A stretch of DNA of 64,000 nt from the human T2T-CHM13v2.0 reference genome, Homo sapiens, in assembly GCF_009914755.1 (NCBI RefSeq), contig NC_060937.1; one strand, written 5' to 3'. The translations under genes and the position numbers were made by a program. Positions 183 through 3,069 of this stretch are shown here, piece by piece. Under the pieces are notes generated by a model, which was not told the origin of the DNA, ran no database searches, and was given only the letters and a program-made list of their open reading frames with translations. Each line of letters begins with the position of its first letter. Positions within the stretch are counted from its first letter, which is position 1.

Positions 183-713
183 GTAAGATAAAGAATACAT
201 ACCAATAAATTGCAGGAGAAATCTTTCCAAATAGCATCTACAGTGATTCATGAGTAGACCCTTAGTATTCTGAGGTTTTGGTTTTCAGACATAATACATT
301 CTCATTCTTTCCACCATTTGTAGTTACTGAACATTTGTCATTGTAGCAAAATCTAGATAAACTTTATAGGGAAGAAAATTAGTGATAAAAAGCCAGAAAA
401 ACTAGCTCCAATAATAGTTTATTCCTGGCATTTTTTTTCAGTTTGAAGTATAGTATACTATAAAAAGAAATTTTAATATTATGCAATGTAAGTGGCATGG
501 AGTGCCTTTATTCTCCCATATTTATTTTTTCTTGCAGACAGGTTTATACATTTTAAGCTGTCAGTTCTTTCTCATGAGCATAGTTGTTCCGTGTAGTTTA
601 TTGATTTGTCTCTAAACATATTGGTATAATTACCTTGATAAACCCTGGGGAATTTTTTTCACTGCTAAAATTACGTTTTTCGAAAGAATAGTTCTTTTTT
701 TTTTCTTTTTTTT

Positions 714-1067
714 GGAATGGGCAAGACTGTGCCCCTTCCAGAGGCTCTGGGGAGAAGCCCTTTCCTTACCCTTCCTGGCCTACAGAGTTTGCCTTCATCC
801 TTGGCTCATGGACCCTTCCTCCATTTTCAAAGCCAACAGCTTAGCATCTTCCAACCTCTGTCTGACTGTCACTCTCCTCCTTCTCTCTTAAAAAGATTTT
901 GTGATTACACTGGGCCCACCTGGATAATCAAGGATCATCTCCCCATCTCAAGATCCTGAACCTAATCACATCTGCAAAGTCAGTTTTATTACATAAGGGT
1001 AACATATTCTCAGGTTCCAAGGATTAGGACATGGACATCTTTGAAGGCCATTATTCAGCACAGCACA
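714..1067 (-). mobile_element. MaLR LTR fragment (MLT1C-like)
   Basis: Motifs gattacactgggcccacctggataatc, taatcacatctgcaaagtc, ggattaggacatggacatctttg. Confidence 0.8.
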
Positions 1068-1074
1068 ATGCTAG

Positions 1075-1363
1075 TTTTTCTTTTTTTTGAGACGGAGTCT
1101 TGCTCTGCCCAGGCTGGAGTGCAGTGGGGCGATCTCTGCTCACTTCAAGCTCCGCCTCCCGGGTTCATGCCATTCTCCTGCCTCAGCCTCCCGAGTAGCT
1201 GGGACTACAGGCGCCAGCCACCATGCCCAGCTAATGTTTTTTGTATTTTTAGTATAAAAATACAAAATTTAGCCAGGATGGTTTCGATCGCCTGACCTCG
1301 TGATCCACCCACCTCGGCCTCCTAAAGGGCTGGGATTACAGGCGTGAGCCACCGTGCCCGGCC
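1075..1363 (-). mobile_element. Alu (AluY-like), full length, with a small internal inversion
   Basis: Poly-T tail then gagacggagtcttgctct...gtgagccaccgtgcccggcc. Confidence 0.95.
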
Positions 1364-3069
1364 CATTCGAAAGAATAGTTCTGAAGATCTAAAGTAAATT
1401 TGCTGAGTCTGTCATTAACTTACAGCAGTTTTAAATTACATAGCTATATCCTAATTAAATGTTAATTTGAGAATATGTCCTTATTGATAAAGATTTACTT
1501 TTTTGTTCTAGCATTTGTGTTTGTAAGTTCTATCGGTTTGATCTTGTTAATTGGCTCTTTTAGGCAGAGCTGCATTCCATTTTGGCTATATAGAGTTTAG
1601 TAAGATCTGATAGAAAAATGAGAAATAAGAGGGTCTTGTTTTGTATGGTATTTATTTTCTCACAATTATCATTTAAAACACTATTTTAACCTTTTGTCTT
1701 GGAAATGATGAAACACTTCAACAATCAGAACTTTAAAATCTAGATCAGTGGTTCAGATTCTCTTGATGTTTTTGTCATCAAGGTCTTATGTCTCAGTTAT
1801 ATAACTTATACTTAATGAATTTCTGAGGTTTTATGAGAAGAATATCATGTCTCAAACAGAATTCTGACAAACTTGCCCCTAAACATAAAGGAATTTTAGT
1901 ATTAATTAGAGTAGGCATAGTTATGAATTCAAATGTAAGGTTTTGATTTGAAATTAGATAAAGATGTATTTTTTCCAGGGTCGTCTTTGTAAAATGACAA
2001 GAATTGGTGTGTGTATTCTTTATAGACCACACCATTCCCAAACTCGTATTACTGACTAGAATATTATATTAAATAACAACAAGATCTCTTCCAGAGCCAA
2101 ATACAACCAAATAATAGAATTTAGGAGAAAGTACACTTAGATGTGTTAGAACTAGGTCTTCTAGTTAGAGTAAACCTCCAGGTGTCACTTCTTGAAGCAT
2201 TTAACTGCTTTTTAACTGAGATTAGAAGTCAGTCACTGTGGTTTTGAAGAATTTTGAGGTAATATAAAAGCTACATTTCATACTATTATAAAATCAAATG
2301 GAAGATGACATCTATGTGATAAGAGATACAGGCAAGTTAGGGAATCAGCCTCATTTAATTTCACTTTATTTAATGTTCTCCTTTATCTCAAGACCTTTTT
2401 ATCTTCACATTTTCCCATTTCTGGCATCCTGTCTTTCACTGTAACATGTTTGCACAGAATAACAGTATACATAGGCAGGTAAATTTTTCTAAAACAGTAT
2501 ACATAGGTAGTTGAATTTTTGCAGTAGAACTCTTGATTTGCAAATAGGCTTATGGTTAGAAGTTGAATTAAAGCCTGTAGTGTCATATACTGGTTTTCTA
2601 GCAAGACTCTTGGAGAAAGAGATACTAGTAGAAGACACAATCTGATTGGGGTGCAAAAGATAAAGTAGCTAGATAATATTTTACTCTTATTTGATGCCCT
2701 CAAAATAATTTAGAACCTGTTTTACTATTGACTCTTAGTTGTTAAAACTCAGGGGAGTTTTGATTATTGGGATTCCCAACTAGGGAAAGAACTAAAAATA
2801 AGTTTTCAGAGAGAGTAGCCATCCTCAGTGAGAAAAATTGATAATTAACATCCTTGGTAAGTATTTCATATGTAATTGCTTTTTTACTTTAGAGATAATT
2901 GATTAAAACCATTTCTGTGTAGTATAGATCATAAATATAATTTGTTTTCTATATATTTCAAAGTGATTATCATAAAAAGCAATACAATTAACCATTTTAG
3001 TATTATAAGTATCTTTTATATGTAATAGGACTTTACAGTTTGTTGTATAAAGAATACTAGGATGTTATT

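What the first reader, a model, noticed from the sequence alone, without database searches (positions are those of the whole stretch)
679..1382. Candidate Alu 3' transduction: Alu + ~360 bp of foreign MLT1 DNA + second poly(A) inside a single 17-bp TSD
Seen: TTCGAAAGAATAGTTCT occurs at 679-695 and 1366-1382. Between the copies, read on the minus strand, are a full-length AluY-like element (1363-1075), its A-tail, ~360 bp of MLT1 LTR (1067-714) and a second A-tail (713-695). The site reads TTCT/GA, a variant of the L1 endonuclease TTTT/AA motif. Known: MLT1 elements stopped moving long before AluY, so the LTR could not have jumped into the Alu; 3' transduction is common for L1 and SVA but considered rare for Alu. 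Inference: the cassette inserted as one retrotransposed RNA, by read-through from a source Alu or RT template switching. Caveats: a T5 run in the Alu sense (890-894) should stop Pol III, and there is no AATAAA before the second tail, so the RNA source is unclear.
Basis: partly seen in the sequence, partly recalled or inferred. Interest (0 to 1): 0.8.

Follow-up and report, generated by a model that had tools for sequence, protein, structure and literature searches.

The report
Mimic of an Alu 3' transduction
An ordinary Alu repeat in a DNAJC15 intron later had 360 bases, copied from beside another Alu 648 kb away, slipped into its A-tail, so it looks like an Alu that carried neighbouring DNA along when it jumped but probably is not.

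Summary
The structure is real. An exact 17-bp repeat (679-695, 1366-1382) encloses, in minus sense, a full Alu, an A-tail, 360 bp of an old interspersed repeat and a second A-tail.

The 360 bp is not in place. It is a 97% copy of chr13:41,636,464-41,636,820, where the same sequence lies directly 3' of another AluY. Other family copies are at most 83% identical.

Three observations argue against one retrotransposed cassette:
1. An exact 15-bp repeat (700-714, 1075-1089: last Alu base plus A8-G-A5) flanks the 360 bp. It includes a tail G that the donor's tail lacks. This is a nested duplication, which points to a second event.
2. The donor is only 648 kb away on the same chromosome, inverted. 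That has p about 4e-4 for random retrotransposition.
3. The donor offers no A-rich run or nearby poly(A) signal to make the second tail.

Best reading (0.5): an old AluY with a 17-bp TSD, then a templated insertion into its tail by replication or repair template switching.

One observation favours RNA instead. The copy stops exactly at the donor's TTTT, a Pol III terminator (chance about 1-2%). An RNA-mediated second event gets 0.25 and true one-step transduction about 0.1.

Alu-versus-flank divergence is not decisive. Primate orthologues, which I could not reach, would settle one step versus two.

The parts
1366..1382 (.). Outer target-site duplication, copy at the Alu 5' side (17 bp)
   Evidence: Exact match to 679-695; 2 matches in the window against 0.02 expected
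679..695 (.). Outer target-site duplication, copy at the tail side (17 bp). The plus strand reads TTCT/GA across the inferred first nick.
1089..1363 (-). Full-length dimeric AluY-like element. There are 2 extra bases (1364-1365) between it and the TSD. I read it as a resident, ordinary retrotransposon insertion.
   Evidence: 87-89% identical to 39 scored genome Alu copies. Two Metazoa_SRP sub-threshold hits. Against a majority of 29 copies it has 15 substitutions, one complex replacement and 2 indels.
1075..1089 (-). Inner 15-bp repeat, copy 1: last Alu base C plus A8-G-A5 (minus sense), next to the start of the 360-bp piece
   Evidence: Exact repeat of 700-714 (D3). Absent from 38 other loci that hold at least 29 Alu tails.
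715..1074 (-). 360-bp templated copy of the 3' flank of another AluY (chr13:41,636,464-41,636,820). It starts with that Alu's 3' TSD (CTAGCATT), covers the first ~357 bp of a ~466-bp old LTR-like repeat, and ends where the donor reads TTTT.
   Evidence: 97% identity against at most 83% for all other family copies. Alignment, donor sequence. 11 substitutions and 1 indel column. Family homology in the donor runs ~110 bp further.
700..714 (-). Inner 15-bp repeat, copy 2: C plus A8-G-A5 (minus sense), next to the end of the 360-bp piece
   Evidence: (D3)
696..699 (-). Rest of the resident Alu's A-tail, not duplicated. The reconstructed original tail is A8-G-A9.
   Evidence: Sequence; inference
890..894 (-). 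T5 run in Alu sense inside the copied piece, 180 nt after its start. It is present in the donor too.
1239..1267 (-). Perfect 13-nt hairpin with a 3-nt loop inside the Alu. It replaces about 19 nt of the usual Alu sequence by an inverted copy of the adjacent A-rich linker, which is the signature of a short template switch.
   Evidence: I5; alignment; private to this Alu among 40 loci; z = -5.2

Best explanation
Two events, not one.

Event 1: an AluY retrotransposed into this DNAJC15 intron in the usual L1-dependent way. This gave the 17-bp target-site duplication, a nick site TTCT/GA and a tail A8-G-A9.

Event 2, later: 360 bp were copied into the junction of the Alu body and its tail. The template was the DNA directly 3' of a different AluY that lies 648 kb proximal on chr13 in inverted orientation.

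The most likely route for event 2 is template switching during replication or break repair (FoSTeS/MMBIR or SDSA type), in four steps:
1. A 3' end ending in the resident Alu's last bases and tail paired with the near-identical end and tail of the donor Alu. The two share 20 identical bases there.
2. That end was extended 360 nt into the donor's flank.
3. It returned to the home locus on 2 bases of microhomology (CA), 15 bases behind the point of departure.
4. The return left the 15-bp duplication C-A8-G-A5 on both sides of the insert.

The result imitates an Alu 3' transduction because the insert sits inside the old TSD pair, between the Alu and the remainder of its own tail.

Shown: the anatomy, the donor, the direction of copying and the nested repeat. 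Inferred: the order of events and the DNA-level route.

I put two events of any kind at about 0.8, and this DNA-level route at 0.5.
For: 1. Donor and direction.
- The 360 bp match chr13:41,636,464-41,636,820 at 97%. The next best family copies are at most 83% (40 of 3666 candidates scored).
- In the donor, the old repeat continues about 110 bp past the end of the window copy, and family homology begins at the donor Alu's insertion site.
- Homology between the two loci stops at the Alu 5' end and at the second tail, so this is not a segmental duplication. The window flank is single-copy.

2. Nested duplication.
- The exact 15-mer lies at 700-714 and 1075-1089, immediately either side of the insert.
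- It contains a G interruption at the same place in both tails.
- The donor's tail is A12 without G.
- None of 38 other loci, which hold at least 29 Alu tails, has this 15-mer.
- By my rough estimate, two independent tails would agree like this with probability of 0.002 or less.

3. Proximity.
- Donor and target are 647,895 bp apart on one chromosome, inverted.
- For a target drawn at random from 3,117 Mb, the chance of being this close is about 4e-4. Template switching typically uses nearby templates.

4. The second tail needs no RNA poly(A).
- The donor has TTTT, not an A-run, at the end of the copied part.
- The only AATAAA is about 270 nt upstream of the tail.

5. No sign that the window Alu descends from the donor Alu.
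- Identity is 87.2%.
- There are 2 shared derived changes, both CpG transitions, against about 1.8 expected by chance.
- 29 of 29 other AluY copies are closer to the window Alu than the donor Alu is.

6. Precedent.
- Templated insertions of 376 and 815 bp at junctions with 1-6 bp microhomology are attributed to FoSTeS/MMBIR (PMC5120786, passages).

7. Possible second switch.
- A separate short template-switch signature (the 13-nt hairpin replacement) lies 170 bp away in the same Alu. Its timing is unknown.
Against: - The copied piece ends exactly where the donor reads TTTT. After the T5, this is the next Pol III terminator downstream of the donor Alu. Under a DNA-level switch that is a coincidence of about 1-2%: 3 runs of T4 or longer in 500 nt, with 1-2 positions each. 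A Pol III read-through RNA explains it naturally.
- A 14-15-bp duplication at TTTT/GA is also what an L1 endonuclease insertion would leave, so the nested repeat does not tell DNA from RNA.
- The donor arrangement (Alu, tail, same flank) is what a true transduction predicts.
- Divergence does not separate the models. The Alus differ about 3-4 times more than the flanks (28 substitutions outside the complex region in about 282 bp, against 11 in 360). After allowing 6-10-fold faster CpG decay, the excess is only about 1.5-1.7-fold (p roughly 0.02-0.1 by my hand calculation).
- No orthologous locus could be examined, so the Alu-only intermediate has not been seen.
- No other rearrangement accompanies the insertion.
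Confidence: 0.5

Rival explanations
1. Two events, with the second one RNA-mediated.

The donor AluY was transcribed by Pol III through its A-tail and through the T5, and terminated at the T4 360 nt downstream. L1 ORF2p nicked the resident Alu at TTTT/GA, at the body/tail border, and reverse-transcribed this RNA from its trimmed 3' end.

When the cDNA reached the RNA's own A-tail, it annealed to the resident tail. Only the flank was therefore added, as an 'orphan' Alu 3' transduction with a 14-15-bp TSD.

A variant: the same RNA served in the nucleus, near its own gene, as a template to patch a break.
For: - The end of the copy coincides with the donor's TTTT.
- Alu Pol III transcripts normally run into the 3' flank as far as a TTTT (PMC4859970 and PMC3412727, passages).
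- The inner repeat has the length of an L1 TSD, and TTTT/GA is a plausible nick site (sequence).
- The copy starts exactly after the donor's tail.
- Orphan 3' transductions are known for L1 and SVA (PMC4859970, table rows).
Against: - The donor is 648 kb away in cis, about 4e-4 for canonical retrotransposition through a cytoplasmic RNP. Only the unproven nuclear cis variant escapes this.
- The transcript must pass a T5. In vitro, read-through products were absent at T5 and very poorly represented at T4 (PMC3141230, passage).
- An RNA ending in U or CCA gives a T8 primer almost nothing to pair with.
Confidence: 0.25
2. One event: a true Alu 3' transduction.

A read-through RNA of the donor Alu (Alu, tail, 360-nt flank) was inserted whole at TTCT/GA with a 17-bp TSD.

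To explain the identical tails, reverse transcription would have begun on the internal A-tail as usual. It would then have jumped to the 3' end of the same or a sister RNA and copied flank, tail and Alu.
For: - A single TSD pair encloses everything, and the Alu is full length.
- The donor has the same Alu-tail-flank order and junction.
- The copy ends at the donor's TTTT.
- 386 high-confidence Alu 3' transductions are catalogued in CHM13 (preprint 10.1101/2021.07.12.451456, passages).
- The private changes are balanced between the two Alus, 13 and 15, as expected for equal time since a split.
Against: - It needs a template jump, a later loss of the G from the donor's tail (A12 now), and a change of A9 to A5 in one copy.
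- Without the jump, the identical 15-mers are a coincidence of 0.002 or less.
- It carries the same 4e-4 proximity penalty and the same T5 problem.
- No derived changes are shared between the two Alus beyond chance.
- There is no source for the terminal poly(A).
- One group states that bona fide Alu events never show transductions (PMC3412727, passage).
Confidence: 0.12
3. The fragment is an ancient repeat copy that was always at this site, and the 17-mer match arose otherwise.
For: None found.
Against: - The fragment is 97% identical to one particular copy 648 kb away, and at most 83% to all others scored.
- It carries that locus's Alu TSD (CTAGCATT) at its start.
- It is a truncated version of that copy.
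- The 17-mer pair is far beyond chance.
Confidence: 0.01

Closest known systems
Alu 3' transduction, as catalogued for CHM13 (386 high-confidence events; preprint 10.1101/2021.07.12.451456)
   Same: - The Alu, non-Alu 3' sequence and an A-tail lie inside one TSD pair.
- A parent locus has the same sequence directly 3' of an Alu.
- A TSD-based pipeline would probably call this locus a transduction.
   Different: - A nested 15-bp duplication brackets the 'transduced' part.
- The terminal tail repeats the internal tail, including a G that the parent lacks.
- The parent has no poly(A) source.
- The parent is 648 kb away in cis.
- The Alu shows no specific kinship to the parent Alu.
- That preprint itself notes that 231 of 700 offspring differ in subfamily from their parents. 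This would fit if mimics like this one are common.
Templated insertions by replicative template switching (FoSTeS/MMBIR; Alu/Alu-mediated rearrangement)
   Same: - A few hundred bases are copied from a nearby locus in cis, in inverted orientation.
- There is homology or microhomology at both junctions: the Alu end plus A-run at one, CA at the other.
- There is a short duplication at the insertion point.
- Sizes of 376 and 815 bp are reported at junctions (PMC5120786).
   Different: - Here the insertion stands alone, with no accompanying copy-number change.
- It ends exactly at a Pol III terminator in the donor, which this mechanism does not predict.
Orphan 3' transductions of L1 and SVA
   Same: Only the flank of a source element is inserted, without the element itself. 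This matches the RNA-mediated rival.
   Different: - Those carry their own poly(A) after a Pol II poly(A) signal, and they land anywhere in the genome.
- Here there is no poly(A) signal, the source would be a Pol III Alu, and the target is 648 kb from the source.
Ordinary nested retroelement insertion into an Alu A-tail
   Same: - The outer and inner direct repeats are nested.
- The target is the T-rich strand of an Alu tail.
   Different: The insert is not a mobile element with its own tail. It is a unique-locus copy of another Alu's flank.

Membership tests
Alu 3' transduction (one retrotransposed read-through RNA) | Alu, non-Alu 3' sequence and terminal A-tail enclosed by a single TSD pair | tested here: met
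   17-bp exact TSD at 679-695 and 1366-1382 around the Alu, 360 bp and two tails
Alu 3' transduction (one retrotransposed read-through RNA) | Parent locus with the same sequence directly 3' of an Alu | tested here: met
   chr13:41,636,464-41,636,820 at 97%, with an identical tail/flank junction
Alu 3' transduction (one retrotransposed read-through RNA) | Offspring Alu descends from the parent Alu (shared derived variants; divergence equal to that of the flank) | tested here: inconclusive
   87.2% against 97%. 2 shared CpG changes against about 1.8 by chance. 29 of 29 other AluY copies are closer. After allowing for CpG decay, the excess is only 1.5-1.7-fold.
Alu 3' transduction (one retrotransposed read-through RNA) | Terminal poly(A) explained by the parent (A-rich run or poly(A) signal at the end of the transduced part) | tested here: not met
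   The parent reads TTTT there. The only AATAAA is about 270 nt upstream.
Alu 3' transduction (one retrotransposed read-through RNA) | No second, internal target-site duplication around the transduced part | tested here: not met
   Exact 15-mer at 700-714 and 1075-1089
L1-dependent Alu insertion (for the Alu alone) | Full-length element, A-tail, TSD of 7-20 bp, T-rich/purine nick site | tested here: met
   17-bp TSD, reconstructed tail A8-G-A9, TTCT/GA. The expected ranges are recalled, not taken from a call.
Replicative or repair template switch (FoSTeS/MMBIR-type templated insertion) | Template nearby in cis, either orientation | tested here: met
   647,895 bp away, same chromosome, inverted
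Replicative or repair template switch (FoSTeS/MMBIR-type templated insertion) | Homology or microhomology at both junctions and a small duplication or deletion at the site | tested here: met
   20 identical bases of Alu end plus A-run at one junction, CA at the other, and a 15-bp duplication
Replicative or repair template switch (FoSTeS/MMBIR-type templated insertion) | No RNA intermediate | not testable with these tools
   The end at the donor's TTTT hints at RNA, and the proximity hints at DNA. A survey of many such loci or an experiment is needed.
   No repeat library is held. For the Alu: SRP-related dimer and thousands of genome candidates. For the 360 bp: an interspersed family at 72-83%. 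The subfamily names rest on recall.

The most novel reading that the evidence does not exclude
The 360 bp were written into the resident Alu's tail from RNA, not DNA. Specifically, the template was a Pol III read-through transcript of the neighbouring AluY that stayed in the nucleus near its gene. It served there as the template to patch a nick or break 648 kb away, using ORF2p or a repair polymerase with reverse-transcriptase activity.

This is the only reading that explains both the stop at the donor's TTTT and the closeness of donor and target. If it is general, part of the catalogued 'Alu 3' transductions' would be cis-acting RNA-templated repair scars.
Probability: 0.08. Interest if true: 0.7.

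Novelty: new member of a known kind. Interest (0 to 1): 0.3.

Why it matters
For the locus itself it matters little. It is an intronic insertion, antisense to DNAJC15, with no sign of function.

The value is methodological. A structure that meets the usual criteria for an Alu 3' transduction (one TSD pair, a terminal A-tail, a parent with an adjacent Alu) turns out on close reading to carry a nested duplication and a cis-proximal donor, and both point to a second, separate event.

The literature disagrees on whether Alu transduces at all. One group says 'never' (PMC3412727). The CHM13 preprint lists 386 events, and a third of all its offspring mismatch their parent's subfamily.

Three simple checks could sort true transductions from mimics in such catalogues, and could show whether Pol III read-through RNAs are ever copied into the genome:
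- a nested duplication of the tail;
- the distance to the donor;
- whether the copy ends at a donor T-run.

Tried and rejected
1. Divergence clock.
- I expected the 87% (Alu) against 97% (flank) contrast to prove two events.
- I classified changes against a majority of 29 genome Alu copies and polarised the flank changes with 8 family copies.
- The excess shrinks to about 1.5-1.7-fold, which is not decisive.

2. Transversion excess.
- The window-lineage changes looked transversion-rich: 6 of 8 non-CpG-type changes in the Alu and 5 of 7 in the flank.
- The control shows that 114 of 176 non-CpG-type changes in the 29 reference Alu copies are also transversions.
- The Alu part is therefore normal, and I dropped the idea of a mutation shower.

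3. Paralogous outgroup.
- The window flank 1383-2100 is single-copy in the genome, so there is no internal outgroup for the pre-insertion state.

4. Other copied pieces.
- I looked for further pieces from the donor region in the window. Only Alu-to-Alu matches turned up.

5. Further offspring of the donor.
- There is none among the 40 scored matches.

6. The published table of CHM13 transductions.
- bioRxiv supplements are closed, and the PMC id that I recalled for the journal version is not held.
- I therefore cannot say whether this locus is among the 386.

7. Earlier findings of this scan were not open.

8. Rejected models.
- Segmental duplication: homology stops at the Alu 5' end and at the tail.
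- Alu inserted after the fragment: no TSD fits.
- An antisense transcript ending at the donor's T12: no promoter, and an A-rich primer would be needed.
- DNA-level copying of the Alu and flank together: the block starts within 2 bases of the exact Alu 5' end, which points to retrotransposition for the Alu.
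Full report
**Observation**

TTCGAAAGAATAGTTCT occurs exactly twice in the 64-kb window, at 679-695 and 1366-1382. Chance expectation is 0.02, and 0 of 100 shuffles gave two matches.

Read on the minus strand, the interval holds the following:
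- two extra bases (1365-1364);
- a full-length dimeric Alu (1363-1089);
- a tail A8-G-A5 (1088-1075);
- 360 bp of non-Alu sequence (1074-715);
- a second tail A8-G-A9 (713-696).

The Alu gives two sub-threshold Rfam matches to SRP RNA, one per monomer. It is 87-89% identical to the 39 best-scoring non-self Alu copies of the genome (40 of 5863 candidates scored).

The T5 at 890-894 (Alu sense) is real. The only AATAAA lies about 270 nt before the second tail. The names AluY and MLT1 cannot be checked here because no repeat library is held.

**Where the 360 bp came from**

A search of the window's own assembly (40 of 3666 candidates scored) gave one outstanding non-self match: chr13:41,636,464-41,636,820, opposite strand, 97% over 358 nt. 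All other matches were 72-83%. The fragment is therefore a recent copy of one particular family member, not an old element in place.

The donor locus (L002) reads: an AluY (L002 1208-1488), a tail of 12 A without interruption, the Alu's 3' TSD (ACTAGCATT, with its 5' copy at 1199-1207), and then the old repeat.

The window copy starts with CTAGCATT immediately after its internal tail, which is the same junction. It runs collinear for 357 nt with 11 substitutions and one indel column.

In the donor, family homology starts at the Alu insertion site. It continues about 110 bp beyond the point where the window copy stops (8 family copies compared). Copying therefore went from donor to window.

Homology between the loci is confined to the Alu plus the fragment. 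The window's flank is single-copy. This is not a segmental duplication.

**The 3' end of the copy**

Where the window switches to A's, the donor reads CCA-TTTT-GG. In the donor's Alu-sense strand, the runs of T4 or longer after the tail are T5 at +180, T4 at +360 and T6 at +404. The copy therefore ends exactly at a Pol III terminator, after passing a T5 that is present in both copies.

Alu Pol III transcripts do run into their 3' flank up to a TTTT (PMC4859970 and PMC3412727, passages). In vitro, however, read-through products were absent at T5 and very poorly represented at T4 (PMC3141230, passage). A random endpoint would fall next to a run of T4 or longer about 1-2% of the time (my estimate).

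**What argues against one cassette**

*First, a nested repeat.* The 15-mer TTTTTCTTTTTTTTG occurs at 700-714 and 1075-1089, exactly flanking the 360 bp (repeat D3; 2 matches, expectation 0.02).
- In Alu sense it is the last Alu base plus A8-G-A5, so both tails carry a G at the same place.
- The donor's tail has no G.
- None of 38 other fetched loci, which hold at least 29 Alu tails, has this 15-mer.
- By my rough estimate, two independently formed tails would agree like this with a probability of 0.002 or less.
- The simple reading is that the resident Alu had one tail, A8-G-A9, and that the 360 bp were inserted at the body/tail border with a 15-bp duplication.

*Second, proximity.* Donor and target are 647,895 bp apart on one chromosome, in inverted orientation. 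A retrotransposed RNA lands essentially at random, so the chance of landing this close is about 1.3 Mb / 3,117 Mb = 4e-4.

*Third, no poly(A) source.* The donor offers neither an A-run nor a nearby poly(A) signal to create a terminal tail.

*Fourth, no special kinship between the two Alus.*
- Against a majority of 29 genome copies, the window Alu has 15 substitutions, a complex replacement and two indels. The donor Alu has 17 substitutions and one indel.
- Only 2 derived states are shared, both CpG transitions, against about 1.8 expected by chance.
- The two Alus are 87.2% identical, and 29 of 29 other copies are closer to the window Alu.

**What is not decisive**

The contrast of 87% (Alu) with 97% (flank) looks strong, but Alus are CpG-rich: the yardstick sequence has 25 CpG.
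- Of the 28 substitution differences outside the complex region, 16 are CpG transitions.
- With CpG sites evolving 6-10 times faster, the Alu excess over the flank is only about 1.5-1.7-fold (p roughly 0.02-0.1, hand calculation).
- The private changes are balanced, 13 and 15. That would also fit a split from a then-pristine source.
- An apparent transversion excess in the window lineage dissolved against a control: 114 of 176 non-CpG-type changes in the 29 reference copies are transversions too.

**Mechanism**

I read the locus as two events (about 0.8).

The first is an ordinary L1-dependent AluY insertion, with a 17-bp TSD and a nick site TTCT/GA.

For the second, the proximity weighs most, and I favour a DNA-level template switch during replication or repair (0.5):
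1. A 3' end ending in the resident Alu's end and tail pairs with the donor Alu's end and tail. The two share 20 identical bases.
2. The end is extended 360 nt into the donor flank.
3. It returns on CA microhomology, 15 bases behind its departure point.

Templated insertions of 376 and 815 bp with short microhomology are described for FoSTeS/MMBIR (PMC5120786, passages).

The same Alu also carries a short template-switch signature. A perfect 13-nt hairpin (1239-1251 / 1255-1267) replaces about 19 nt of normal Alu sequence. It is private to this copy. Whether it arose in the same episode is unknown.

The rivals are as follows:
- An RNA-mediated second event (0.25). This is an 'orphan' copy of the donor Alu's read-through transcript, inserted by target-primed reverse transcription at TTTT/GA with a 14-15-bp TSD. 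It explains the stop at TTTT but not the proximity, and it needs read-through of a T5.
It needs, in addition, a template jump from the internal tail to the RNA's 3' end and later changes in both tails.
- A reading in which the RNA acted in the nucleus close to its gene. It would explain both coincidences, but it has no direct support here (0.08).

**Comparison with what is known**

Alu 3' transduction is not new as a category. The CHM13 repeat preprint lists 386 high-confidence events, which is 0.033% of Alus. It notes that 231 of 700 offspring, all elements together, differ in subfamily from their parents (10.1101/2021.07.12.451456, passages).

Another group states that bona fide Alu events never show transductions (PMC3412727, passage). 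A population study treats 3' transduction as a feature 'particularly' of L1 and SVA (PMC9311842, passages).

I could not see the preprint's supplementary table, so I do not know whether this locus is listed.

By the usual criteria this locus would pass as a transduction. It fails two tests: the parent supplies no source for the terminal tail, and an internal duplication brackets the copied part.

**Verdict**

The locus itself is of little consequence. It is of modest methodological interest as a mimic of Alu 3' transduction. Primate orthologues would settle one step versus two. A survey of catalogued cases would settle RNA versus DNA.

Noticed in passing
window 1239-1267 (minus-sense Alu): About 19 nt of normal Alu sequence are replaced by an inverted copy of the adjacent A-rich linker. 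This gives a perfect 13-nt hairpin with a 3-nt loop (DNA fold -9.8 kcal/mol, z -5.2). It is private to this Alu among 40 loci and is the signature of a short template-switch mutation.
   Followed up: partly
window 715-1074 versus L002 1501-1857: Of the 12 columns where the copy and the donor differ, at least 6 changes fall on the window copy and about 2 on the donor, by a vote of 8 family copies. 4 are ambiguous. 5 of 7 window-side changes are transversions. This may reflect error-prone copying or chance (one-sided p about 0.05-0.15).
   Followed up: partly
window 15891-16158, 17618-17897, 54783-55064: Three other AluY-like copies in the window are 91.5-93.3% identical to the donor Alu. That is closer than the finding's Alu is (87.2%). 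They each show about 12 CpG transitions but only 1-4 transversions against the yardstick.
   Followed up: partly
window 1182-1233 (-) and 1106-1165 (+): Sub-threshold Rfam matches to mir-1268 and mir-3135 lie inside the Alu. They probably just reflect Alu-derived miRNA families.
   Followed up: no
L002 1118-1140, 2010-2190 and 2160-2300: The donor locus holds an (AAAAC)n microsatellite about 70 bp upstream of the donor Alu. It also holds an older antisense Alu about 150 bp beyond the old repeat, followed by an AT-rich tandem repeat of about 10-bp units.
   Followed up: no
window 1364-1365: Two bases (TG in Alu sense) lie between the outer TSD and the canonical Alu start. The donor has TT at the matching place, so they are uninformative about descent.
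   Followed up: no
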